DNA of 64,000 nt, taken from NCBI GenBank assembly GCA_965215195.1, contig CBDCDC010000002.1:3104001-3168000 (forward strand), written 5' to 3'. A program made the position numbers and the translations under genes. The stretch comes from Candidatus Latescibacterota bacterium (lineage in GTDB: Bacteria; Latescibacterota; UBA2968; UBA8231). Positions 13,837-25,816 of the stretch are shown here, piece after piece. Under the pieces are notes generated by a model. The model was not told where the DNA came from. It made no database searches and worked only from the letters and a program-made list of their open reading frames with translations. How positions within the stretch are numbered: position 1 is the stretch's first letter; each line of letters opens with the position of its first letter.

Positions 13837-13913
13837 CGCTCGTTCTCCACGGTAGCAGTTACAGCACTTCCTGCACAGGTCTTACCCGGGGTTCTGGCAG
13901 TGGAAGACCCTTA

Positions 13914-14046
13914 GAAGCGGTCTGCAAACTCTCGGCGAACCGCGTTGAGCAGCGGTTGAGCGGCCCTCGGATGGCGCGTTTTTCGAGGGCGAGACGCCCT
14001 CGATCCTACACACAAGGGACGATACCTAGAATTTTCAGACCGCTTC
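13914..14046. mobile_element. MITE (133 bp) with internal REP-like hairpin
   Basis: TIRs GAAGCGGTCTGCAAACTCT and revcomp GAAGCGGTCTGAAAATTCT; TA on both flanks; hairpin CGAGGGCGAGACGCCCTCG from 13984. Confidence 0.75.
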
Positions 14047-14249
14047 TAAATCGCTTCTGAACTTGCACTTAAAATAAATACTCTTAAAGAAGCATCGTCC
14101 AGAACTCCGTTGCTATGCTCAACATTCGCAGACGCGACTACGGTCGAGGGGTTGGAACATCTCGCGTATCTGCTGAGCCAGCGGCGAATCTGGATAGGAC
14201 CGATCCTCACAAGCGCAATCCCGCTGCGAAGGCGATCCCGAATTGGACA

Positions 14250-15467
14250 CTAAAATAAAAATTTCCGCACAGTTTTCTCTTGAATTTCGGCACCGCCATG
14301 CGAGCTAAATCGCGGGCGGACTCGAATTGTCGTAACAGACTCGGTTTCATCATCAACCAACAAGGCTTCACCTCTACGATTCAAGTTGCGAATGTAGCTC
14401 TTTAAGTCTCCCCCCATATACGTTGCACTCAGTCGGTCAAGTGCATTGATGTCGTCCCAAGTTGTAATTTTGTGCGCGACAATGACGTCGCATTGTGATA
14501 ACAGTTCAGGATCAATCGCGGCCGGCTGTTGCGTCGCTACGACGAGGCTGAGACCGGGTTGACGTCCCTCTTTCACCCAACGAATGAGCATTTCCTTGCA
14601 GAGCGAGGCTCGTCCTTTCGGCACAAATTGATGGGCTTCGTCAATCGCCAGCCAAACCCGCGGTAGCTTCGTTGACAAGCCAAACTCCTCTCTTCGTCTT
14701 TCTCGGGTTCGCTCAGAGAAAAGACGGTGGGCGACAACGTCTAGCACCATATTGCGTAGTCCTTTCGTACCCGCATCAATCACACTTAGGTCTAAAACAT
14801 TGATCTGGTTCAAGAGAAACACATCATTCAATGAGGTAGGTTCTTCTGCGAAGATACCCCATCTATTCGCCGCCGTTAAACGGTTTTCTAAAGCCTCTTT
14901 AGAGGTGTCTTTCGCTCTTGGATCTCTCTTGATTACCGCAAGGATGTCATCAATCGTAAAATGCTGGTCTTTTTCGAGAAGTGTATCAACTGCTCGCCAC
15001 AAAACAATCCCCATCACTTCGTTTATGCCAATGTCAAACAGCTCGCACCACGCCTCGGGAGAGAGATCTGCGGTGCTAATTTGGAGTGGAACAACTTCGA
15101 CATCGTTCTCTCGCAACTTCGTAAGCACTGCGGCATCGCCGTATCGAATCAACGGATCACCAGGGACAATTAGTCTAACGGGGAAGCCACTGGTAAGAAA
15201 TCCGGCATGACGAACTTCATCCGCCTGGGTTTGGTTCGGCAGAGCCATCGTGTGGTAAATTCCCATCGGGTCGGCAATGATAATTGTTGCCTCGCCTTGT
15301 TCTTGGCTGAACAGTTCTTCGACGATGACGCCCATCGTGTAGCTTTTGCCAGAACCACGCTTGCCGCAAATGAATACGGCACGTGCTCCTGTTGCATTCA
15401 TATAAATCAGTTCGCCACTTTCGTATTCAGTACCGATTCGCAAGTTGACCTCTGCCATTTGAATCAC
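14250..15467 (-). CDS. HerA/FtsK-superfamily ATPase (DUF87-like), last gene of defence-like operon
   Basis: Walker A GKRGSGKS, IIADPMG, Walker B WLAIDEAH, KEGRQPGLSLVVATQQP. Confidence 0.88.
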   Translation of the reverse strand: MIQMAEVNLRIGTEYESGELIYMNATGARAVFICGKRGSGKSYTMGVIVEELFSQEQGEATIIIADPMGIYHTMALPNQTQADEVRHAGFLTSGFPVRLIVPGDPLIRYGDAAVLTKLRENDVEVVPLQISTADLSPEAWCELFDIGINEVMGIVLWRAVDTLLEKDQHFTIDDILAVIKRDPRAKDTSKEALENRLTAANRWGIFAEEPTSLNDVFLLNQINVLDLSVIDAGTKGLRNMVLDVVAHRLFSERTRERRREEFGLSTKLPRVWLAIDEAHQFVPKGRASLCKEMLIRWVKEGRQPGLSLVVATQQPAAIDPELLSQCDVIVAHKITTWDDINALDRLSATYMGGDLKSYIRNLNRRGEALLVDDETESVTTIRVRPRFSSHGGAEIQEKTVRKFLF

Positions 15468-16609
15468 CTACCATTTGGGATAATGTCGAATAATGGAACG
15501 AAAGACTCTTGTGCAGAAATTCCACCGTGAAATCCCCACTCCGTCACCTTTCGGTTCCTAGCGATGACTTCATCGTCTGTTAAAACCGTAAATGTCTCTC
15601 CAGATTCAGCAATAGTGATTCCCGACATGTCTGATGAGGTTTCTGCATAAGTATAACGAGAATAACGGGCGGACGTACTCCTTAATTGAACTGGCATCAC
15701 TTTCTGTTCTTTGAACCAGAGAATCCCATGGTCGCTAGTTATAAAAATCCGTACAGTCTTTTCAGACGATCCGACTGCTTCAACAATCTGCTCAATGTTC
15801 AATTTAAGTTGGTTCAGCATCGCTTCAATGTTCGGTTTTTCTCTATGACTATGGCAAACCCCATCAAGTCCTGTCCGCACAATCTGAATGAACATCCGGT
15901 CAGTCAGGTCAGCAGTCTGTAATTTATCCAATACTTCTTCAAAGGTTGTGACGCGAAACAGTTGGGTCGGTGGAAACTCGGAAAAGAGTACATCGGTAAG
16001 CTGATTTTGAGAACGCTCCCAATATGAAAATCCGACCCGCTGTGCGTACCCTAACGCAAACAATCGATGCGTTAAGGGTGGCGACCCGATTAGTCGACAC
16101 ATGCTGCTCGTTGTGATGCTTAGTCCATCAACAAGACATGGTTCACACATCATGAGCCAAGATTCTGGGAATGACCAATCGATCACATTGTACAACGACA
16201 GCCCATCAAACACCAGAAAAACCACAATGTCAGGAAGTGTGTGTGATACGCGATCTGTAATGGTCTGGGCGAGTTGCGATTGTTTCAAGAGTTTCGATTT
16301 ATCTGTGCATAAGGTGTTGAAACGGTCGGGTAATTTCTGGTTCACCCATTCGATTGGAGGAAACGCGGGAAGGTCAATTGTGGGGAAACCGAAAGTGTCT
16401 GTCAATTCTTCGCTTTCAGCCTCTGGGAAGTTCACAAAGAGCACTTCCTTTGTAGGAACTTCCCATGGCGTATCAACAACACCTCGCCATTCTGCCAGCG
16501 AACTGGGACGCCAAATATCAGACAGGCATATTTCCCATAGCCCTTGCGTCTCCTTTGGCAGAGTTGTCAGGCATGGGATTCGCTTTAGAAATTTGAATAA
16601 CCTATCCAA
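15464..16609 (-). CDS. PglZ-domain alkaline-phosphatase-superfamily protein
   Basis: FLVFDGLS, ITSDHG, FHGGISAQESFVP; ATGA overlap with the HerA gene. Confidence 0.8.
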   Translation of the reverse strand: MDRLFKFLKRIPCLTTLPKETQGLWEICLSDIWRPSSLAEWRGVVDTPWEVPTKEVLFVNFPEAESEELTDTFGFPTIDLPAFPPIEWVNQKLPDRFNTLCTDKSKLLKQSQLAQTITDRVSHTLPDIVVFLVFDGLSLYNVIDWSFPESWLMMCEPCLVDGLSITTSSMCRLIGSPPLTHRLFALGYAQRVGFSYWERSQNQLTDVLFSEFPPTQLFRVTTFEEVLDKLQTADLTDRMFIQIVRTGLDGVCHSHREKPNIEAMLNQLKLNIEQIVEAVGSSEKTVRIFITSDHGILWFKEQKVMPVQLRSTSARYSRYTYAETSSDMSGITIAESGETFTVLTDDEVIARNRKVTEWGFHGGISAQESFVPLFDIIPNGR

Positions 16610-16622
16610 TTCACGCCTCGCT

Positions 16623-19600
16623 TTATGCAGTTGTACGTGAGACTTTGATGTTCAGCCAGTTACGTTGGTATAATTCTTCGAGACTCTCAATAATCTCTGA
16701 AGTTGAACTGAACACTTCATTCGCAGACTGCCTGAGATTAATAATAAGTTCTGTGAAATCTTTGTCCGTATTCATTTCAATCAGATCCAAAAGCACTTTT
16801 GCGTTTGGACTTAGAGCCTATACGAAAATTGATTTACTGTTAATAAAAAGGTCTTGGCAATCTACGCTTTCCTTACCTATTGACCCTCAATCAAGTCCGA
16901 ATTGTCGACCGTTTGACATAATTTTCGTATAGGCTCTTAACTCACTTTTGTCACATCTAAGTTGACCTTGAATGTCTTCCCATCTTTTGAAAACCGCGTT
17001 ACCCACCTCCAAAATCGAATTGAGTGATTCCACCCACTCCGATAACTGGGCGTCAATAGCATCAGGTTTCAGGGCAACTTCCACCTCATTGATCCTATGC
17101 TCCAAATCCAGTACCTCACTGTCTAGGTCAATTGCCTGATTTTTGATCTTGTCACTGACGGTGAAGACCTCAATCGGTTTCATCAATTCGTTTTTTCGTT
17201 TTTCAATGCTTTCAATTGCGGGTTTGATAACAGATTCACGAATCTTCTCAACCGCTTTTTCACGGACTCGGCGGTAGGAACCTTCTTCGTCGGAGGGGTT
17301 GTATTGTTCGCTGATGCTTGGTCTGTTAGTGAGTTGGTGAAGTTGGTTTTCAATAGAGGCTTGAAACCGGATAAAGTCATCTTTTCGGCGTTCAGAGATC
17401 TGGTCAAATTCGATCTTGATTGCGGTGATTTGATTGGAGAAGTACTCGTGATCATCTAGCACCTGCTTGACGGTTTTCGTCTGGTCTGCAAGATGGTGCT
17501 TAATCCGCTGCTGTTCCTCGTCTAGTCTAACACAGAGTTCTTTAACCGCGTCTATCTCTTGGGCATCAGTCATCGTCAGCCGGTCACGCTCAACTTGTCT
17601 GGCAAGATTGCGCCATTTCTCAAATAACTCATAAAGCATTTCAACTTCTGCACACTTCTCGCGAAGTGCATCAATCTTCTTACCAATCGTCTGTATAGAA
17701 CTACGAAGATTAGCTGCCACTGCAATCGCTTTTTCAGAGATTTGATTGGATATGTATTCTTGCATCTTCTCATCGTGAATCGCCCGTACTTGCTTTTGTA
17801 TCTTAGCTATTTCTTGAGGAATGAAGGCATAAGCCTTCCGAATTTCATTGCGGACATCCTGAAACAGTAAAACTGAGAACTCGGTCGCCGGGTGTCCGGT
17901 CTCTTGCTTCAGTACCCTCGGCGGCTCTAATCTCAGTGTTTCACCCTCTGTGGCCTTTCGTTTTAGTTGGTCTGCGGCTGTCCCTATCCACCCCGCACAT
18001 TGCGTTTTGAAAGCGTCCTCAATTGAATTGAGTTTTTGCCGCAATGAATCCTTGCGGACTTCATCGGACTCAATTCCGACTACTTGGAAATCTGCCTGAA
18101 CCGACGATAACGAGTTATCTCCGTCGCTTTCTGGCGTGAAGCCCTTTGATTTTGCCAGTGCTTCCAGTGCCTCAAGCCGTTTGAGTTTGCTCTGCAGTTC
18201 GGCGAAACTGATCTCTGTCTCAACACAATACAGATAATCAATCCCTTGCTGCTGCTTTCTATCGACCAATCCTCTTGCTTCCAACACTTTGATTAACTCC
18301 TCAATTTCATCATTGAGATATCCAAGCCCCGCTTCTTGCTGGAAGACCTCGTGGCATTTTACTGCTTCGGTAGGCTTGCCATCAACAACGATGCTTTCCA
18401 CACTTGCCTCAAGCATCTTCAAAATGCGCTCTTCCATGTCATGGAGTTTGAAATATACAGCGACGGCTCCCTGATTGTTTTTCACGTCAACGCCTTCCGC
18501 TATGGTTTTGCCATTGGCGTCAAGTTCATTAACGAGCAAAAGATCACGCAAAATACCACCTGGATAGAAGGTATTGGAAAAAGTGGTGTGCTGACCAACC
18601 TTAAACATTCTTGGCACCTCTTTGCCACTCATTTTCATCGGTTCCTCGCCCCGTCTCACACCGAGGCTTTCGACATCTTTCAGTGCCAGTATGTAAATTC
18701 CTAAATTCTTTTTCCACTGATGCGAGATCGCCACAGCACGATATGATTTGAACTTCTCCCGTATCAGTACGCCCAAAGCTCGTTCGACAAAACTTTTCCC
18801 GGCCAATACTTGTGCTAAATCTGCTTGCTGTGATACGGCACTCTCCTTGACCTCAACGGAAAAGAAGTAACTGATCAATTGGTCACGAATTCGGGATTTC
18901 AAGAGTTTTACCTGCGATTCCTGTTTCAACTCCTTGATTTGGGCGATAGTCGTTTCTTTGTCAAAGAAGTTGAGCATCGACAAGAGCAATGAAGGAGTAA
19001 CAGACTCTGGCAGAAATAGATCGCCAAGTTTGCCAATATCTTTTGGGATTTCTAGTTTGTCGATCGCTTCCGAGATGTTGAGGTGGAAACAGAGTTTGTC
19101 TGCATGAACATCACAGGTATTTAGAATGTGCTTGTCCTGCTGAGTTTGAAAAATAAAAGAGGCGAACAACTGGCTTTCACGGTAGGCACCGCTAATTTCC
19201 TGGAACTCCTCGGTGCCAACATGGACAGTCAATGTCCGAGCTGGATAATCTCGGAGAGAACTTCCCGACAGTACGGCCTGAAAAATCGGTTCCATATCCC
19301 CCTCCATCTTTTTCAGCCCTCCCCAACCCGTAAAGGACGCTCCAACAGTCTGTGTGAAGATTTCGGGTAGAATGTAATTCGCAAATGACCTGACAGCGGC
19401 GCGATGGGTTTCTTCACTTGCGGGGTTGTACTGATTCCGCAGGATTTTAAGGATTTCAACGAGCGCATCGCCTGCCTGTAAATCATCCTTGTAGTGGGTT
19501 AATGTTGGCCCGGTGATTTTCGTAATAACATGTGTGCCCAACAATCCTTCCACGACCGCCAAGCGGTCTTCACCAGAGATGCCGTGCTTCTTGAAAAGTT

Positions 19601-20834
19601 CCTCCGGTACGCCATCTGGGCAGACGCATAGGAGTTTAACGACCTGCTGTTTCGCTTTGTTAGCACCGATGATGGGTTGACTCATGATTGAGGTGTGTGC
19701 TTTAACCGTGTCGATTTCCTGATTGTTGAAGCAAATGCGACCTTGAGAGATATAATCTTCGCAAAAATCGAAAATTGAATAGGGTTGTTTCGTTTCGCTG
19801 AAGCGTATTGCGGCATATCGAAACACCGCAACAACTGATCGGGGACCACTGATCAGTTGCGTTGTGCGTTGGTGCCCTAAAAACTGCCCGAGGGCAAACA
19901 GCACATCCGGATCGATCGCGTTTTGCTCCTCATTGGATAGTTTACACGCAATGGACAATTTCTCCCAAAGGTCGTGGGCGAAAGATCTATTGTTTTCAAT
20001 TTTTCCATACGCCTGCTCGAGATCAATCAAACTTCCTGTAGGCTTGTTGAAGCGTGCAAACATGTAAGGTTCTCTGAGTTGGATCTCCGAAAAAGTTCGG
20101 CGGTAGGTCAGAACAATACATCCAATTGGGAAACTGTTTTCTTGGAAGATGGGAAAAATAAAGTCCTTGAGTTCAGAAAAGTTCTTGGCGATGTCTGGAT
20201 TCGTATTGGCAAAAAGCTCGAATTCATCCGGCAGAATAAGCAATCCTTTGTAATCTGCCTCAAGAAGCGTTGCCGTTGCCTTCCGTAGGTAGTCAATGAG
20301 GCGGTTCGCGGAAATAGAATCAGTTAGCTCACCTTTCGCTTTGAGCGACTGAACAACCCGTCTGGCGTGATCGAGCGGAATATCTTCTTCTTGACTGGTT
20401 CTGCGGGCACGGTCTTCGTCGCTGCTTTCAATTAGCGTCTTATACCGCTGTTCTAGATCGGGAATCAGATCTGGTCTCTTCGCCTTTAAACGATAACAGA
20501 CCCATCTATGAGTTGCGATAAGCATGTCGGCAATGCTATTCCACGCAAACGGTGGAACAGTAACAATCTCCCGTTGTTCCGCATAATGCCAAAATGAGGC
20601 TGCTGTTGAGGTTTTGCCGTAGCCCGTATCGGCATGGATGAGCCCGGTTGCCGAACGCCCTCGCAGAAGGTTGTTGAGAATGGCATCCCACTTATCGGCC
20701 ATATCGGCAATAGCGACATGTGTTGAGACGTGAAATTGAAAACGATTTGCCCATTCACCTGGTCTCGCCGCGAGGTCTGATGCGCTTGGCGTATCAACCA
20801 CAACACTCTTCTGAATGATCTCTTCCAAAGCCAT
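16623..20834 (-). pseudogene. Large P-loop ATPase with long coiled coil (BrxC-like), interrupted by a MITE; current ORF 16887-20834 (1315 aa), restored ORF 1361 aa
   Basis: Walker A ADTGYGKT, Walker B LILPDEFE, coiled-coil C-half; removing MITE plus one TTA restores frame to TAA at 16623-16625. Confidence 0.75.
16814..16936. mobile_element. MITE (123 bp), IS5/IS1031-like ends
   Basis: Perfect 17-bp TIR GAGCCTATACGAAAATT / AATTTTCGTATAGGCTC; TTA at 16811-16813 and 16937-16939. Confidence 0.92.
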
Positions 20835-20877
20835 GTGTAATCTCCTCTCCCTAGTCGATCTGGAGCCTGCTTATGTC

Positions 20878-21411
20878 TTATATCGCGTGTTCTGCTAGCA
20901 TTTTAAGTTGTTCCCAAATCCCCGAGCGGTGGCGTTCAAAACTGTCCACCTTATCAATTGGCGAATGGGCAAAAAATTTACGCATCACGCCCTCAATTTG
21001 CGCCACATCTCTATCTGTCAGATCCAACTCAATGCTCCGAACCGCATCATCAATCGGTTGGCGCGTCACCAAAACTACCGACGACGCGCTGGCCCAAAGC
21101 ATATCCCCAAAGATCGACCGAGCTAAATTTCGGGCAGACGGTGCGTTATCAATGATAACTACTGAATTTGGGGAAATTTCCGTTCTTGGACAATTTTCCA
21201 TAGATGAAAAATAGAGACCTTCTGCACAGTGATGGAGATAGTGAGCGAGAAACGTTTTGCCGATTCCTGGATTCCCCCAGAGATTGATACGTTGTTGATA
21301 GTCTCCAATCTCCTGTCGCAAAAACTGACAGACCGCTTGTTGAGAAGTTGTCAAAGCCTCATTGGTTTCCGCCAATGCAAGCAGTTTTCTATGGTGAGAT
21401 TGCCAGAGCAT
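20878..21411 (-). CDS. Small P-loop NTPase (BrxB-like position)
   Basis: Walker A GNPGIGKT, Walker B-like VVIIDNA; 177 aa. Confidence 0.65.
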   Translation of the reverse strand: MLWQSHHRKLLALAETNEALTTSQQAVCQFLRQEIGDYQQRINLWGNPGIGKTFLAHYLHHCAEGLYFSSMENCPRTEISPNSVVIIDNAPSARNLARSIFGDMLWASASSVVLVTRQPIDDAVRSIELDLTDRDVAQIEGVMRKFFAHSPIDKVDSFERHRSGIWEQLKMLAEHAI

Positions 21412-21565
21412 CGAATTTAATTCACAGATGTTTTGCGTCTCATTTTTACCGTTTGTTGATGCTTTCGCAGCAACTCAGTACGTTCTTGCCAGAAAGCCAG
21501 TTGTTCTTTGAAACAGACGTATCCGCATATACGCTCAAAATCTGTGTATTCAACTTTCAATCCTC

Positions 21566-22405
21566 TCAATCAAGAAAATCCCTGACCTCAAGCTCCTGAT
21601 TTAACACCACGTAAACCCCGTCCCAACTCCGCTGTACCGACAGGTACGAGATTTGACGCAACGCCTCGTCAAGCATGAGATCAAAACCGGTTTCGTCAAT
21701 GAGACAGAAGCAACAAACGGCTTGTTTTCGCTTGTCGTCAATTTTGACCAACTCCCCAAATGATGTATCAGACTCTCGCACAATATAACTGAGTCCCATC
21801 ACAAAAAGCGGTGTTGAACAGAATGGTCGTTGTGCGAATGTCGCGCCCTTAAGTGATTTGCCGCCACCCTCGCCGTTCGCGAAGACGGGCGGCTCTAAAG
21901 GCAGGAGCCAATCGTAAGCATCTTTGATTGATTTACTGGAGAACGCATTGCCAATATCCAGCGGAATCACTACTTCGTCAGAAGCACGAAGGTCATTGAT
22001 GTAAGCCACCAGTTCCCGATCTCTATCCGGCAACGTCTGCCGTGTCCACAGGTAGTCACAGATGTTTTTGTACGCCCACGACGCAATGTTTTGTTCAGGA
22101 GCGTTTTGTGTCCATAGACCGTATTGCCGTGCGTGTAGAAAATCAATTGCGGTACTTCGTTTCGTTTCCCACAAGAAATAGAAAGCCTCGCCTTCGGGAG
22201 TTAATGACCTGCTTTTTCCATCTGCGAATCCCCATTCGCTTAATAGCTGAACTGCTTCATAACGCGCTGTATCCGTTACTGTGTATCCATTTTCCAAAGC
22301 GATTTTGACCATTCGCCGAATTGTAGTAAGTCCAGGGTGATATTTGTGGACCCACAATGCCGACTCCAAATCCGAAAACCCTTTTAGAATGTGCGAGCGT
22401 ACCAT
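21566..22405 (-). CDS. Uncharacterised protein, possibly winged-helix (BrxA-like position)
   Basis: ATG at 22405 with GGAGG RBS; function inferred from operon position only. Confidence 0.5.
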   Translation of the reverse strand: MVRSHILKGFSDLESALWVHKYHPGLTTIRRMVKIALENGYTVTDTARYEAVQLLSEWGFADGKSRSLTPEGEAFYFLWETKRSTAIDFLHARQYGLWTQNAPEQNIASWAYKNICDYLWTRQTLPDRDRELVAYINDLRASDEVVIPLDIGNAFSSKSIKDAYDWLLPLEPPVFANGEGGGKSLKGATFAQRPFCSTPLFVMGLSYIVRESDTSFGELVKIDDKRKQAVCCFCLIDETGFDLMLDEALRQISYLSVQRSWDGVYVVLNQELEVRDFLD

Positions 22406-22415
22406 AAATCCTCCG

Positions 22416-24041
22416 TTAAAGGTCATGATTATTAACAGGCCACAAGTATTCACCTATTAAGCTCTGTGACATGCGGTAGTACGATCCTGATAGCTCGCGT
22501 AACATATCCGTTCGAGGTATTCGTTGATGCGTTTCCAACTCTGCCATGACGGTCAGATTGTGCATAATCCGACTCCATCGGTTGTTTGAAAGTCGATCGA
22601 AAGAATCGCAAAACGGACAGTCATGCCTTATACTTTCTTTCCATAATTTGAATTCTGTTTCATTCAAACTCCCGTTCTTTCGGGAATTAAAAGTAACCAG
22701 ATAACCTCGCATAAATGGAAGGAATATCTTGCCATATCCACCAGAGCGCATCCAACCATTAGAGTCAAATGAATGCACACCGGCTAATGATAGCAGATAG
22801 ATTGCAGGCGGTGTTGAAATACCGAAGGTGTGTAGTTTGACACCGTCAGAATCCAGCATCCGAGTCAATTGTCGAAGAATCATCAGCGCACTGACATTCA
22901 ATCGGTTGATAGAGTTTGAAGTCCCACTTGTTGGAAATGAACCGAACCCGATTCTCTTAAAATTGGTATATTGTCGTAGGCAATAGTCGAGATGTTCACT
23001 TCTCGTTGCGTGAACAACGGGCATCGCCTTCTGCTGAATTGCGTAAGAAAGGTCACCATAAAGTTGCAGGCTACCTTCAACAGTTTGTTTTATCTTCGCT
23101 TCCGCAGAACTCAGCGAATCTTTGCTGAGTGGTGGATTATCTGGAAGAACATAGATATCCGCCCAATCCTCCTGCTGATAGCGTTCATAGAGTTTTCGGT
23201 GAAGGTCGTAGTAAGAGATGTCTCCTTTCTGGACGAAATAGCCACCAGAGTCGAACATGACTACTTCCGTTTCACCTATTCGTTTCAGTTCCCGGACAAA
23301 ATCGAAGGTGTACTTGTGAGCAACGACAGGAGAGATAAGCACCCGTTGAAATGGATTCGGTTTGCCGAACTTCCAATCAAAATCGTGTGCATTTTTATGC
23401 CAGAGGCGGTGCAATGTCCTCATCTCATCCGGTTTAACAGTCAGGGAGGCGTAGAAATGCGCGAGTGCGTGAGGTTCGGTTCCCCATGTGAAGGATTGCT
23501 GTAAAGCCTGATTACCAACCATGCGGAGAAAGGAGGTACTCGGGGGTGTTTCCGCGTATGAGCCGTGTATTGGGGGGAGGTGGTAGTACCACACCTGGAG
23601 CCGTCTCTTTTTACCTTGCTCCGTTTCGGCATGCCGAAATCCGCATTTTTGGTAAAATTGATTGGCACTCAGATCTTGTGGGCACTTGAGACGAACATAT
23701 TGCCCACCGGCGAGGTGAACACGTCGAATTAATTCGCTCAGCAAACGGGTGCCGACACCTGTGCGCCTATATGCGTCAGCTACTGCAATTTCGTACAGTG
23801 TTGCGTTTCTATCCCGTCTGATTCGGAAGTTTGCAAAGCCTGTGACCATGTCACGCTTTCTCTGATCCTTCCATTCGGCGGCAACGAGCAGCCACCCTTT
23901 GCTTTGTGCTGCCCGCAAAATGGCGATGTTGACAAACCCTAATTCCGATCGATATTGATCCGCAATCCGTTTCGCGCCTTCAACGTCCGCTTTCCGCGCA
24001 AGTCGAACGGTTATTGGTTGTTGATGTTGTGGCAAAATCAT
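22416..24041 (-). CDS. GNAT acetyltransferase fused to TGT/DpdA-like transglycosylase
   Basis: GNAT: LYEIAV..YRRTGVGTRLL, ANQFYQKCGF. TGT: MFDSGGY, LPDNPP, LHTFGI, SFDSNGW, HDCPFC..HNL. Confidence 0.82.
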   Translation of the reverse strand: MILPQHQQPITVRLARKADVEGAKRIADQYRSELGFVNIAILRAAQSKGWLLVAAEWKDQRKRDMVTGFANFRIRRDRNATLYEIAVADAYRRTGVGTRLLSELIRRVHLAGGQYVRLKCPQDLSANQFYQKCGFRHAETEQGKKRRLQVWYYHLPPIHGSYAETPPSTSFLRMVGNQALQQSFTWGTEPHALAHFYASLTVKPDEMRTLHRLWHKNAHDFDWKFGKPNPFQRVLISPVVAHKYTFDFVRELKRIGETEVVMFDSGGYFVQKGDISYYDLHRKLYERYQQEDWADIYVLPDNPPLSKDSLSSAEAKIKQTVEGSLQLYGDLSYAIQQKAMPVVHATRSEHLDYCLRQYTNFKRIGFGSFPTSGTSNSINRLNVSALMILRQLTRMLDSDGVKLHTFGISTPPAIYLLSLAGVHSFDSNGWMRSGGYGKIFLPFMRGYLVTFNSRKNGSLNETEFKLWKESIRHDCPFCDSFDRLSNNRWSRIMHNLTVMAELETHQRIPRTDMLRELSGSYYRMSQSLIGEYLWPVNNHDL

Positions 24042-24055
24042 GCGATGGAACTCTT

Positions 24056-25816
24056 TTATAATTTAGGTATTAAGTCTTCGAAAGTAAGATTGGTATAGTC
24101 AAAATCCGTTTCCTCCTCAATTTTGTTTACCTGTGACTTCAACGTCCACTCGAAAGGCATCGTTTCCACAAACAAATCTGTATAAAAATTTAATGCTGCG
24201 ACAATCAGTCTCGTCTCCTCTGGGTCTTTGGGGGACAATACCTGAGCAATCCACTCAATAGGTAACGGTCCATTTGACAGTAACTGTGTGAGGACTTGTC
24301 GATATTTTGAGGCTTCCTCCCAAAGGTACAAGCCGTAGGTATCATTATCATAAACTTGAAAGCGGTAAGGTTGTTTTTCGCAGATGCCGACAACATCAAA
24401 AGGCGTCAACCTGAAGTTGCCGAGTTGACTCCATATTCCATTGGCAATCGCTTTTGCCGCGGTGGGTTCATTGGTCATTCGGAGATACCATTCGATGAGT
24501 GACGCTTGTCCTATGGCAGTCATTGGCTTTTCAGGGTTGAACCACGTCCACTCCTTTAGCCCGATGAGTATTTTTCCATACTGATGAACTTTCAAGAGGG
24601 GATAACTTGTAATCCTATTGAGCAAATGCTCTGAATCGAAAGCTGTTTTGCTCTTTTCTTGAATGAGGTGTTGGCATTCTGCCAATGCTAAAGGCCAATA
24701 GCCGTAACATTGGAGTCTCGCTGCAAATTTTGCAAAAACATCTTGAATGCGTTCTCCTGATTTCAGATGGCAGACGCCATCAATAATTTTGTAATCGTCT
24801 GTCCCTAAGCATATCCATGCATCACCGAATGCTTCATCAAACCAGTCGCTAATCCACTGTTCACTATCGCCCCATCCCAACCGCTGATGAATAATTTCTC
24901 GGAGATTCTCGACGGAACACCACCCACCACCCTTTGCTAAAACATCGCGGATAGATTTGTTCAAAAGACGGCAGATCGTGGTTGCAATTAAGTGATTGTC
25001 CGCGCCTTGATTAATTTTATTGTTGATTGCCTTCTTAATTTGCCTGACTCGCTCACGGCTAACCCCAAGTAATTCACCGATTTGCTGTAAATTTTTAGGG
25101 GTTTCCTCATAACCATAGTAGTACTTAACAATCTCCTGTTGGCCGGATTGCAGGCGTTGAAAAACTACGCGACCGAGTTCGGAAAGCATCTGAATCTGCG
25201 GTAATTCGCCAGAATGACCATTATTCGGATCAAACACATCAGGATTTGCTATGACCTTATTTACTGTTTCCTGAATTTCAGCCAGAGATTTGTGTCCAAA
25301 ATTCCTAAATCTGCCGAGCCATTGTTTGGGAGGGAGTTCGGCAATCTCTGCAAGTGTTTTGAAGCCTTGATTAAGGAGAATATTTTGCGTCCGAACACTC
25401 CAGGTGAATTGACGGATAGAACTGTTTTGAAGAGCGTTCCAAGTATAGGAGGGTACTTTTATGTTCAGGAGGGGGATAAAGACCGATTGCACTTCTGTAG
25501 AATGCTCATCGTTCGTATTGGACGATATAATTTCTGATCCTCGATCGCAGTTGGAGGCAAATTTTAAGCTCGTGAGAAATGTCCAAATCTCTTCGGCTGT
25601 TTGTTTGCCACAATTTCTGAGAGCAAGTAGACAATCAAGAGTTGTAATTTTCTCGATTAGCTCTTGTTCGTCTATAATGTTTGCCATTGACAGACAATTG
25701 GATGCACGAACGCTAAATCCTTTAGATCTCCAGAATTGTGCAGTTATTTTTCTTTTTCTAGGTTCCATCCGTGCTTCTCTAATCCGTTCCTTCACTGTCA
25801 TTTTGAGTCGAAACAC
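24056..25816 (-). CDS. Two RNAP alpha-CTD-like domains + sigma70 region-4 HTH + uncharacterised C-terminal region
   Basis: FSVRASNCL..LRNCGKQTAEEI; WSVRTQNIL..FRNFGHKSLAEI; NLQQIGELLGVSRERVRQI; start codon uncertain. Confidence 0.78.
   Translation of the reverse strand: MFRLKMTVKERIREARMEPRKRKITAQFWRSKGFSVRASNCLSMANIIDEQELIEKITTLDCLLALRNCGKQTAEEIWTFLTSLKFASNCDRGSEIISSNTNDEHSTEVQSVFIPLLNIKVPSYTWNALQNSSIRQFTWSVRTQNILLNQGFKTLAEIAELPPKQWLGRFRNFGHKSLAEIQETVNKVIANPDVFDPNNGHSGELPQIQMLSELGRVVFQRLQSGQQEIVKYYYGYEETPKNLQQIGELLGVSRERVRQIKKAINNKINQGADNHLIATTICRLLNKSIRDVLAKGGGWCSVENLREIIHQRLGWGDSEQWISDWFDEAFGDAWICLGTDDYKIIDGVCHLKSGERIQDVFAKFAARLQCYGYWPLALAECQHLIQEKSKTAFDSEHLLNRITSYPLLKVHQYGKILIGLKEWTWFNPEKPMTAIGQASLIEWYLRMTNEPTAAKAIANGIWSQLGNFRLTPFDVVGICEKQPYRFQVYDNDTYGLYLWEEASKYRQVLTQLLSNGPLPIEWIAQVLSPKDPEETRLIVAALNFYTDLFVETMPFEWTLKSQVNKIEEETDFDYTNLTFEDLIPKL

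What the first reader, a model, noticed from the sequence alone, without database searches (positions are those of the whole stretch)
14250..25816. Candidate hybrid defence system: BREX-like core + HerA + GNAT-TGT base-exchange enzyme, with no methyltransferase
Seen: seven co-oriented, closely spaced genes in a visibly AT-richer island. Order is alphaCTDx2-sigma4 protein > GNAT-TGT > unknown > small NTPase > large coiled-coil ATPase > PglZ > HerA. Known: canonical BREX pairs PglZ and a BrxC ATPase with a PglX methyltransferase (a PAPS-reductase-like protein in type 4). Dpd systems use the TGT paralog DpdA to insert 7-deazaguanines into DNA. HerA usually partners NurA, Sir2 or another effector. 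I recognise no PglX, BrxL, DpdB/C or NurA here. Inference: a BREX-related anti-phage system that marks self DNA by base exchange, possibly followed by acetylation. I recall a comparative-genomics proposal of a BREX/HerA/Dpd hybrid and cannot verify whether this matches it, so novelty must be checked. I know of no experimental characterisation.
Basis: partly seen in the sequence, partly recalled or inferred. Interest (0 to 1): 0.92.

Follow-up and report, generated by a model that had tools for sequence, protein, structure and literature searches.

The report
BREX-related HerA defence island with TGT
This is a horizontally acquired seven-gene operon of a rare, recently described but untested kind of bacterial anti-phage system that probably marks DNA by swapping guanine for a modified base, and here one of its genes is cut short by a small mobile element.

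Summary
Seven co-oriented minus-strand genes fill 14250-25816, in a 46% GC island within 61% GC DNA. The domain calls are right: alphaCTD x2 + sigma-4, GNAT-TGT, an unknown protein, a small P-loop NTPase, a 1315-aa ATPase, PglZ and HerA. There is no methyltransferase. A 126-bp multicopy MITE truncates the big ATPase.

The gene order is strongly conserved. All 31 related loci that span TGT to HerA keep GNAT and the unknown protein; 30 keep the NTPase, the ATPase and PglZ.

The system is not new. It matches the "BREX-Related Capture (BRC)" system defined in silico by Rakesh & Krishnan (NAR 2026, PMC12839542), which has never been tested experimentally.

- The first gene is a conserved core component, in 28 of 31 loci. 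It is related to MzaA and PglW, and relatives carry a HARE-HTH domain. The paper's main text does not list it.
- GNAT was present in all 31 loci, fused or separate.
- The TGT keeps the three catalytic aspartates with DpdA-like spacing, plus a zinc site.
- The "unknown" protein matched no DUF4007 model.
- The host has QueC and QueF.

Verdict: a new member of a known, computationally defined kind. How it works remains inferred.

The parts
24056..25816 (-). SIG: a DNA-binding protein. It has two RNAP alpha-CTD-like helix-hairpin-helix repeats (about residues 20-86 and 127-187), sigma-70 region 4 (219-264), and a C-terminal part that includes a HARE-HTH-like module (about residues 436-505, window 24302-24511).
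   Evidence: Pfam. Of 29 family members, 28 match Sigma70_r4, 19 the alpha-CTD, 12 HARE-HTH (best 1.3e-9) and 7 Sigma70_r2. In PADLOC 22 of 29 match MzaA (best 1.9e-41) and 17 of 29 match PglW. The HARE-HTH in the window's own protein is inferred from the family alignment A9 only. The gene is present upstream of TGT in 28 of 31 loci.
22416..24041 (-). GNAT acetyltransferase (about residues 1-165) fused to a TGT-fold transglycosylase (about residues 185-541).
   Evidence: D264, D301, D426, H473, C475, C478 and H494 are invariant in 39 sequences. Twelve of 104 relatives carry a precomputed PF01702 hit. A profile of the domain finds archaeosine TGT 1iq8 (E 0.017) and DpdA 7ui4 (E 0.25).
21566..22453 (-). 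U3: a roughly 278-aa protein of a family with no Pfam model in this library. The likely start is M17 at 22405. It has an N-terminal winged helix and is probably a multi-wHTH DNA-recognition subunit.
20878..21411 (-). Small P-loop NTPase, the 'STAND NTPase' of the BRC description.
   Evidence: AAA_16 1.6e-4 and nSTAND3 0.05. Walker A (G46, G49, G51, K52, T53) and D88 are at least 95% conserved in 47 sequences.
16887..20834 (-). BrxC/BrxD-like ATPase with a long coiled-coil C-terminal half. It is truncated here: about 1299 native residues followed by about 16 MITE-encoded residues.
   Evidence: Eleven of 25 family members match Pfam PF10923 BrxC_BrxD (best 1.5e-5). Walker A (G71, G73, K74, T75) and Walker B (D203, E204) are invariant. 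Nine of ten homologues are 1324-1394 aa long; the tenth is 1053 aa.
16810..16935 (.). 126-bp MITE inserted in frame near the 3' end of the ATPase gene. It brings in two stop codons.
   Evidence: Contigs of runs X2 and X4 join 16809 to 16936 and skip 126 bp, but with only 26 letters on the shorter side.
16623..16809 (-). Orphaned last ~61 codons of the ATPase gene. The frame is still open and still close to intact homologues.
   Evidence: Tail of the tblastn alignment.
15464..16609 (-). Short PglZ (alkaline-phosphatase superfamily) protein, the candidate nuclease or phosphodiesterase effector.
   Evidence: D135, G136, T166, D293-H294-G295 and H361-G362-G363 are invariant in 23 sequences. The family profile finds PDB PglZ 9zn5_B at E 0.039.
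14250..15467 (-). Short-form HerA/FtsK ATPase. Its start overlaps the PglZ stop by 4 nt.
   Evidence: DUF87 7.7e-17, PADLOC HerA 3.8e-23, and mad8 1e-20 over the full length. Walker A and Walker B (D276, E277) are conserved in 31 sequences.

Best explanation
The locus is a horizontally acquired defence island of the BREX-Related Capture (BRC) type, in its GNAT/TGT-bearing form. The working model below is inferred, not shown.

1. A modification module marks host DNA. The DpdA-like TGT exchanges guanine in DNA for a 7-deazaguanine base taken from the host queuosine pathway (preQ0 or preQ1). It is probably helped by one of the P-loop NTPases, as DpdA needs DpdB. The GNAT then acylates that base or its precursor.

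2. DNA-recognition subunits place the enzymes and read the mark. These are U3 (multi-winged-helix) and SIG (alpha-CTD repeats, sigma-4, HARE-HTH).

3. A restriction module acts on unmarked incoming DNA. It consists of the BrxC/D-like ATPase scaffold, PglZ and the HerA translocase, whose gene overlaps the end of the PglZ gene by 4 nt.

In this particular genome a MITE removes the last ~61 residues of the BrxC-like ATPase, so the restriction arm may be impaired.
For: Shown:
- The seven genes and their domains are as reported.
- The island is compositionally foreign.
- The housekeeping flanks (NicO, UbiD, amidase) carry no integrase.
- Distribution is patchy: U3 was found in 9 of 168 genomes of the phylum.

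Synteny. Among 91 related loci, 31 span TGT to the short HerA. Of these 31, GNAT is in 31, U3 in 31, the NTPase in 30, the BrxC-like ATPase in 30, PglZ in 30 and SIG in 28. Twenty-four of them follow the order SIG, (GNAT), TGT, U3, NTPase, BrxC-like, PglZ, HerA, (GNAT) in its three commonest forms. No other gene is conserved with them.

TGT.
- The three aspartates D264, D301 and D426 and an H-C-C-H zinc site are invariant in 39 sequences.
- Their spacing (37 and 125 residues) mirrors DpdA's Asp95, Asp130 and Asp256 (35 and 126). These are DpdA's acid/base, base-recognition and nucleophile residues (PMC10164549, passages).

Host pathway. The genome has two QueC matches (5.9e-61 and 5.4e-54), QueF (2.4e-31) and a separate canonical Tgt (4.8e-166).

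BREX link. Eleven of 25 family members match PF10923 BrxC_BrxD. PglZ matches appear in three libraries, and the metal and nucleophile motifs are conserved.

Reader candidate. HARE-HTH occurs in 12 of 29 SIG relatives. HARE-HTH was proposed as a sensor of modified DNA, and the ASXL1 domain bound 6mA DNA in vitro (PMC6591016, passages).

The same overall model is proposed in print for BRC (PMC12839542, section 36).
Against: - There is no functional evidence of any kind, here or in print.
- Several family assignments for the window's own proteins fall below curated cut-offs: TGT 20.8 bits against 26.3, PglZ 21.8 against 25, and the NCBIfam hits far below theirs. They rest on family-level transitivity.
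- The TGT domain is equally remote from tRNA and DNA transglycosylases (E 0.017 and 0.25), so DNA as the substrate is inferred from context.
- No DpdB or DpdC homologue and no preQ0 genes lie in the operon.
- The GNAT's best named match is RimI, a protein acetyltransferase. Its gene sits next to TGT or is fused to it in 17 of the 31 loci, and lies after HerA in the other 14.
- The two Pfam families the paper names (DUF6079, DUF4007) were not matched by any of 25 and 105 family members.
- The ATPase gene is broken in this genome. It is deleted or shortened in L006 and L082, and L011 is a degraded locus.
Confidence: 0.6

Rival explanations
1. GNAT and TGT form an effector rather than a self-marking module. 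On infection they attack RNA or protein: the TGT acts on tRNA, and the GNAT acetylates aminoacyl-tRNA or proteins, as GNAT toxins do (that comparison is recalled). Alternatively they damage phage DNA by excising guanine. The result would be abortive infection or direct damage, with no host DNA mark.
For: The TGT domain's best solved relative is a tRNA enzyme, archaeosine TGT (E 0.017, against 0.25 for DpdA). The GNAT's best named match is RimI (3.6e-9). No DpdB or DpdC lies in the operon. The GNAT gene lies after HerA, away from TGT, in 14 of 31 loci.
Against: Both PDB matches are marginal. The genome already has a canonical Tgt. The operon partners are DNA-oriented: multiple DNA-binding domains, a HerA translocase and PglZ. 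BREX-like systems are modification-dependent. A constitutively expressed active transglycosylase in an operon fits a housekeeping self-mark better than a toxin.
Confidence: 0.15
2. The island is not an immune system. It would be an epigenetic or transcriptional device in which a sigma-derived protein redirects RNA polymerase to DNA marked by TGT/GNAT.
For: SIG is built from RNA polymerase modules. Seven of 29 relatives keep sigma region 2 as well as region 4.
Against: In PADLOC 22 of 29 SIG relatives match MzaA and 17 of 29 match PglW, both components of defence systems. PglZ, a BrxC/D-like ATPase and HerA are hallmarks of defence systems. The patchy distribution, foreign composition and recurrent decay are typical of defence islands.
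Confidence: 0.07
3. Whatever the family does, the copy in this genome is a decaying, non-functional relic, because the MITE truncates the ATPase.
For: The insertion adds two in-frame stops and removes a conserved tail of about 61 residues. Nine of ten homologues are 1324-1394 aa long. Other loci show independent loss or shortening of the same gene: L006 has 1053 aa and L082 lacks it.
Against: All other six genes are intact. The orphaned tail is still open and similar to L001, so the insertion is recent. About 1299 of 1360 residues remain, including the ATPase domain. A possible MITE-free allele is seen in two other runs, but on weak grounds (26 letters on the shorter side).
Confidence: 0.4

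Closest known systems
BREX-Related Capture (BRC) system (Rakesh & Krishnan, Nucleic Acids Res 2026, PMC12839542; in silico only)
   Same: It lists the same seven components: PglZ, a BrxC-like AAA+ ATPase, a small active NTPase, a DNA-binding protein of about 280 aa, HerA/FtsK, GNAT and TGT (the paper notes GNAT is 'occasionally fused with TGT'). It has no methyltransferase and no DpdB or DpdC. The proposed logic is the same.
   Different: The paper's main text lists no alpha-CTD/sigma-4/HARE-HTH protein, which is core here (28 of 31 loci). It says GNAT and TGT occur only in a subset, whereas every locus I reached has GNAT; note that all my loci were found through TGT. It labels the ATPase DUF6079 and the DNA binder DUF4007, and neither Pfam model matched any member here. 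I could not see its Figure 10 or its supplementary tables.
Type 2 BREX / Pgl (PglW, PglX, PglY, PglZ, BrxD, BrxHI)
   Same: Both have PglZ and a BrxC/BrxD-family ATPase. SIG is homologous to the central alpha-CTD-like plus HTH region of PglW: 17 of 29 relatives match, best 4.2e-28, and the window's protein matches PglW positions 800-987 at 1.2e-4.
   Different: This locus has no PglX methyltransferase, no kinase domain and no BrxHI. HerA, TGT and GNAT are added.
Dpd 7-deazaguanine restriction-modification system (DpdA-K)
   Same: Both have a TGT-fold enzyme with the three catalytic aspartates at DpdA-like spacing, and both would depend on host preQ0 synthesis. A language-model lead links U3 to DpdG-like proteins (0.91 and 0.89).
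   Different: This locus has no DpdB, no DpdC and no Dpd helicases. The TGT is only marginally similar to DpdA (E 0.25). The DpdG link is unconfirmed: PF28110 is not in the library and there was no PADLOC hit.
MADS MAD7-MAD8 and DndH-type HerA modules
   Same: The short HerA matches PADLOC mad8 over its whole length (1e-20) and DndH (1.9e-7). It is an ATPase paired with a putative nuclease, here PglZ.
   Different: None of the six other proteins matched a mad model (mad1-mad7) in PADLOC at E <= 0.01. The locus has no m6A methyltransferase.
MZA system protein MzaA
   Same: Twenty-two of 29 SIG relatives match PADLOC MzaA (best 1.9e-41). NCBIfam MzaA matches the window's protein at 1.8e-5.
   Different: I did not search specifically for the other Mza components. 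None of the seven proteins matched an Mza model other than MzaA.

Membership tests
BRC (BREX-Related Capture) system | PglZ-domain protein in the operon | tested here: met
   Pfam PglZ 2e-4 (below cut-off), PADLOC PglZ 5.9e-6 and NCBIfam BREX_PglZ_4 3.4e-7. The family profile finds PDB PglZ 9zn5_B at E 0.039. The DG..T..DHG..HGG motifs are invariant in 23 sequences.
BRC (BREX-Related Capture) system | BrxC-like ORC/Cdc6 AAA+ ATPase annotated as DUF6079 | tested here: inconclusive
   None of 25 family members matched DUF6079 at E <= 0.1, but 11 of 25 matched PF10923 BrxC_BrxD (best 1.5e-5). Walker A and B are invariant. No BrxC structure was hit in the PDB.
BRC (BREX-Related Capture) system | Small, enzymatically active STAND NTPase (BrxB homologue) | tested here: inconclusive
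   It is a 177-aa P-loop protein. Walker A and D88 are at least 95% conserved in 47 sequences. Matches are AAA_16 1.6e-4 and nSTAND3 0.05. The relation to BrxB needs a fold comparison, and structure prediction was off.
BRC (BREX-Related Capture) system | Tripartite DNA-binding protein annotated as DUF4007 (BrxA-like) | tested here: inconclusive
   Neither 36 nor 105 U3 family members matched PF13182. hhalign of U3 against real DUF4007 sequences from the same phylum gave probability 5.6% and E 0.0068, but the alignment was colinear over 235 columns. Weak winged-helix hits and Atlas leads to FokI recognition-domain and double winged-helix families fit a multi-wHTH protein.
BRC (BREX-Related Capture) system | HerA/FtsK translocase, universally present | tested here: met
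   DUF87 7.7e-17 and PADLOC HerA 3.8e-23. It is the best-conserved gene: 70-95% identity in L001-L010.
BRC (BREX-Related Capture) system | GNAT and TGT domains (in a subset of BRC loci) | tested here: met
   GNAT 1.6e-11. TGT is supported at family level, and its catalytic aspartates and zinc site are invariant. GNAT is present in 31 of 31 loci.
Canonical BREX (types 1-6) | PglX/BrxX N6-adenine methyltransferase, or PAPS reductase in type 4 | tested here: not met
   None of the seven proteins matched such a family in Pfam, PADLOC or NCBIfam. The seven genes leave no room for another gene in the island. No further conserved gene appears in related loci.
Canonical BREX (types 1-6) | BrxA, BrxB and BrxL (or BrxHI/BrxHII, PglW) recognisable by their models | tested here: not met
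   No such hit was found apart from a partial PglW match of SIG.
Dpd system | DpdA-type DNA-guanine transglycosylase | tested here: inconclusive
   Three invariant aspartates have DpdA-like spacing, but the profile matches DpdA 7ui4 only at E 0.25 and archaeosine TGT at 0.017.
Dpd system | DpdB (ParB-like ATPase) and DpdC (DUF328) | tested here: not met
   Neither is among the seven proteins, and neither appears among conserved neighbours.
MADS | Eight-gene mad1-mad8 operon with an m6A methyltransferase | tested here: not met
   Only mad8 matches, via HerA (1e-20). One of 29 SIG relatives gives a weak mad1 hit.

The most novel reading that the evidence does not exclude
The universally linked GNAT and TGT together install a DNA base not yet described: an N-acylated 7-deazaguanine, for example acetylated dPreQ1 made from host preQ1. 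The HARE-HTH module of the RNA-polymerase-derived SIG protein is its dedicated reader. This would be the first BREX-like immunity keyed to base exchange rather than methylation or phosphorothioation. A still bolder variant is that SIG's arrays of alpha-CTD and sigma-4 domains act as decoys for phage proteins that hijack host RNA polymerase.
Probability: 0.2. Interest if true: 0.85.

Novelty: new member of a known kind. Interest (0 to 1): 0.45.

Why it matters
BRC has only been described by comparative genomics. If the model is right, it would extend BREX-type immunity to a third chemistry of self-marking, base exchange. It might also add a new hypermodified DNA base and an ATP-assisted, sequence-directed enzyme that edits guanines in double-stranded DNA.

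This locus and the roughly 30 complete relatives gathered here do three things:
- They give natural intact operons to clone.
- They define the real core: eight domains, including a PglW/MzaA-like protein whose relatives carry a HARE-HTH and which the published main text does not list.
- They point to specific residues to mutate.

The finding also shows the island moving among MAGs labelled Latescibacterota, Gemmatimonadetes, Poribacteria and Anaerolineae, and being eroded by MITEs and deletions.

Tried and rejected
1. Membership by the paper's own Pfam labels. DUF4007 (PF13182) was not matched by the window's U3, by 36 close relatives or by 105 distant ones. It was not matched in the island when I searched the whole genome either. 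DUF6079 was not matched by P0005 or by 25 relatives.

2. Profile-to-profile comparison. U3 against DUF4007 gave probability 5.6%. The SIG C-terminal part against DUF4007 and against U3 gave 0.2%. I therefore reject SIG as the 'DUF4007' of the paper.

3. Solved structures.
- The whole GNAT-TGT query and profile returned only GNATs.
- The U3 profile gave only weak winged-helix hits and spurious TALE-repeat hits.
- The BrxC-like profile gave only coiled-coil noise.
- The HARE-HTH region profile gave nothing meaningful.

4. DpdG lead for U3. Atlas scores were 0.91 and 0.89. PF28110 is not in the library, and no PADLOC model matched 105 members in a relevant way. It remains a lead only.

5. Empty-site reconstruction. 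The NicO and UbiD flanks are not adjacent in genomes of the genus that lack the island, so no clean empty site could be defined. In 4 of 4 carriers of the same genus the island lies next to UbiD.

6. Expression. No RNA holder was listed for the stretch.

7. Reads. All four runs laid were contigs. A 126-bp skip that coincides with the MITE appears in X2 and X4 with only 26 letters on the shorter side, below the tool's 31-letter bridging rule. This is suggestive, not established.

8. Structure prediction, fold search and complex prediction could not be run. No complex result exists.

9. Supplementary Data S1 and Figure 10 of PMC12839542 were not available. They may already list these loci and the SIG gene.

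Full report
**What is there**

Seven co-oriented minus-strand ORFs fill 14250-25816, with gaps or overlaps of at most 154 nt. The stretch from 14.0 to 26.0 kb has 43-50% GC in every 1-kb bin, against 55-66% elsewhere. By my own count the island is 0.462 and the flanks 0.614 and 0.608. The flanking genes are housekeeping (NicO-like transporter, UbiD-family decarboxylase, amidase), and I found no integrase.

- Two RNA polymerase alpha-CTD repeats plus sigma-70 region 4.
- GNAT plus a sub-threshold TGT.
- A 295-aa protein with no family.
- A 177-aa P-loop NTPase.
- A 1315-aa ATPase with only an AAA_16 hit.
- A short PglZ protein, with weak matches in three libraries.
- A 405-aa HerA, which also matches PADLOC mad8 over its full length.
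- No methyltransferase, PAPS reductase, BrxL, DpdB/C or NurA among the seven.

**The MITE**

A perfect 18-nt inverted repeat brackets a roughly 126-bp element at the 3' end of the big ATPase gene. A 141-nt query across it finds 17 matches in the window's own genome. Five are near full length at 95-100% identity, counting its own site.

An intact 1367-aa homologue from L001 aligns with the window in a single frame from 20834 to 16632. The alignment shows a 42-codon insertion that carries two stops, and the last ~61 codons are still open behind it. Nine of ten homologues in genome records are 1324-1394 aa long, and one (L006) is 1053 aa.

I laid public contigs on the site:
- Run X1 bridges both MITE junctions.
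- Runs X2 and X4 each hold one contig that joins 16809 to 16936 and skips exactly 126 bp.
- Those contigs have only 26 letters on the shorter side, below the tool's own bridging rule.

A MITE-free allele is therefore suggested, not shown.

**Conserved synteny**

A scan of genome records with the GNAT-TGT protein gave 11 loci. They come from MAGs labelled Latescibacterota, Gemmatimonadetes, Anaerolineae, Poribacteria and 'uncultured bacterium'.
- Nine loci (L001-L008, L010) hold all seven genes in the window's order.
- L009 has the small NTPase after the big ATPase, and only a 59-residue alpha-CTD-like match upstream.
- L011 is degraded.

A metagenome scan with the TGT-domain alignment confirmed 180 relatives, and 80 loci were kept. 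With family profiles built in the script box, 31 of the 91 loci span TGT to the short HerA. Their content:

| Component | Loci with it, of 31 |
|---|---|
| GNAT | 31 |
| U3 | 31 |
| Small NTPase | 30 |
| BrxC-like ATPase | 30 |
| PglZ | 30 |
| SIG | 28 |

Two of the three loci without SIG begin at the contig end, so SIG could not be seen there. The third is L009.

GNAT is fused to TGT in 12 loci. It is a separate gene just upstream of TGT in 5, and a separate gene just after HerA in 14. No further gene is conserved with the operon.

Conservation is uneven. Against the Anaerolineae locus, HerA is 70% identical, TGT 59%, U3 50%, the ATPase 43%, PglZ 38%, the small NTPase 31% and SIG 28%.

**It is already described in silico**

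A full-text search for PglZ, HerA, TGT and GNAT returned one relevant paper: Rakesh & Krishnan, Nucleic Acids Res 2026, PMC12839542 (preprint October 2025). I read its section 36 in full, section 38 in full, and term passages.

The paper defines a 'BREX-Related Capture (BRC)' system found in 45 taxa. It lists seven components: PglZ, a BrxC-like DUF6079 ATPase, an active STAND NTPase, a DUF4007 DNA binder, HerA/FtsK, GNAT and TGT. It notes that DpdB and DpdC are absent and that GNAT is 'occasionally fused with TGT'. It proposes GNAT/TGT self-marking plus HerA-assisted PglZ restriction.

Two further searches found no experimental work.

(a) SIG is a core component.
- Of 29 relatives, 28 carry Sigma70_r4, 19 the alpha-CTD (one to six tandem copies), 12 HARE-HTH (best 1.3e-9) and 7 also Sigma70_r2.
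- In PADLOC, 22 of 29 match MzaA (best 1.9e-41) and 17 of 29 match PglW (best 4.2e-28).
- The window's own protein matches Pfam HARE-HTH at no threshold. Its module at about residues 436-505 is assigned through the family alignment, which has I, F, L and W invariant.
- In the parts of the paper I read, no alpha-CTD, sigma or HARE component is mentioned for BRC. Its figure and supplements were not visible.
- HARE-HTH was proposed as a reader of modified DNA in restriction-modification contexts. The ASXL1 domain bound 6mA DNA in vitro (PMC6591016, passages).

(b) The TGT looks catalytically competent.
- D264 (in FDSGG), D301 (in LPD), D426 (in SFDS) and H473, C475, C478 and H494 are invariant in 39 sequences down to 31% identity.
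- The aspartate spacing is 37 and 125 residues. That matches DpdA's Asp95, Asp130 and Asp256, at 35 and 126.
- Twelve of 104 relatives carry a precomputed PF01702 hit.
- The domain is still remote from every solved TGT: archaeosine TGT at E 0.017 and DpdA at E 0.25.

(c) The host can supply 7-deazaguanine bases. It has two QueC matches, QueF and a separate canonical Tgt.

(d) The big ATPase belongs with BrxC/BrxD by PF10923 in 11 of 25 relatives. None of the 25 matched DUF6079.

(e) U3 is a family of its own.
- It has 194 representatives at the 50% identity level.
- It has no Pfam hit, and none to DUF4007, in 105 members.
- hhalign against genuine DUF4007 sequences from the same phylum is colinear but not significant, at probability 5.6%.
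- Weak winged-helix hits point to a multi-winged-helix DNA-recognition protein. So do language-model leads to DpdG-like, FokI recognition-domain and double winged-helix families.

(f) The motifs of PglZ, the small NTPase and HerA are conserved.

**Distribution**

U3 was found in 9 of 168 genomes of the phylum: 5 of 31 in the window's genus, counting the window's own genome, and 4 of 31 in a second family of the phylum. In all four other carriers of the genus the island lies beside the UbiD gene.

The island is 44-49% GC inside 56-65% GC flanks in six loci of genome records (L001-L003, L005, L006, L010). In the Poribacteria locus it matches its flanks, 0.47 against 0.48-0.50. This is compatible with spread from a lower-GC donor, which is an inference.

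**How it most likely works (inferred)**

- Modification arm: the TGT exchanges guanine in DNA for preQ0 or preQ1, helped by an NTPase. The GNAT modifies the base or its precursor.
- Recognition: U3 and SIG bind DNA and read the mark.
- Restriction arm: the BrxC/D-like ATPase, PglZ and HerA act on unmarked DNA. The HerA gene overlaps the end of the PglZ gene by 4 nt.
- I hold this at about 0.6. Most of the doubt is about the substrate and the role of GNAT.
- The rivals are a tRNA- or protein-directed effector module, a non-immune epigenetic or transcriptional device, and inactivity of this particular copy because of the MITE.

**Limits**

No fold-level test of the BrxA/BrxB/DUF4007 claims was therefore possible. 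Supplements of the BRC paper were not available.

**Verdict**

The interpretation matches a published computational proposal. This is a new member of a known, experimentally untested kind, with some new anatomical detail. Interest 0.45.

Noticed in passing
window 13911-14049: A second MITE-like element sits just outside the island's HerA end. It has 25-nt inverted arms with 89 nt between them. A 151-nt query across it gave 51 matches in the window's own genome.
   Followed up: partly
own genome, e.g. G000:C2:4138882-4139831: Several matches to the ATPase-gene MITE are split. Positions 6-91 and 96-135 of the query lie about 860 bp apart. This suggests a longer parent element of roughly 950 bp with the same termini.
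   Followed up: no
window 16537-16636: Contigs of runs X2 and X4 join 16537 to 16636, skipping 98 bp across the ATPase stop and PglZ start region. Only 30 letters lie on the shorter side. It may be a strain variant or an artefact.
   Followed up: no
L006:13674-16832; L082; L011: The system decays repeatedly. L006 has a 1053-aa ATPase that lacks about residues 200-504. L082 lacks the ATPase gene, although its near-twin L081 has it. L011 keeps only fragments.
   Followed up: partly
L015:3572-7906; L068:4568-9453; L050:244-3192: SIG relatives vary a great deal. They range from 526 to 1445 aa and carry one to six alpha-CTD repeats. Some have duplicated C-terminal modules, and L068 has two SIG-like genes in tandem.
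   Followed up: partly
genomes of the window's phylum (L092-L111): Genuine DUF4007 proteins occur in 45 of 168 genomes of the phylum, but not in the window's genome. They presumably belong to Ssp or BREX type 4-like systems.
   Followed up: no
G000:C1:324270-326975 and G000:C2:1430713-1431321: The genome has two QueC paralogues. One lies in a 387-aa open frame about 2 kb from QueF.
   Followed up: no
L061:1-3834; L037:1724-4666: Long HerA-like proteins (1278 aa and 981 aa) lie beside two of the related operons. In L061 one stands in place of the short HerA.
   Followed up: no
L090:598-11347: Two copies of the TGT/U3/ATPase part lie on one contig in opposite orientation. The two ATPase genes converge, tail to tail.
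   Followed up: no
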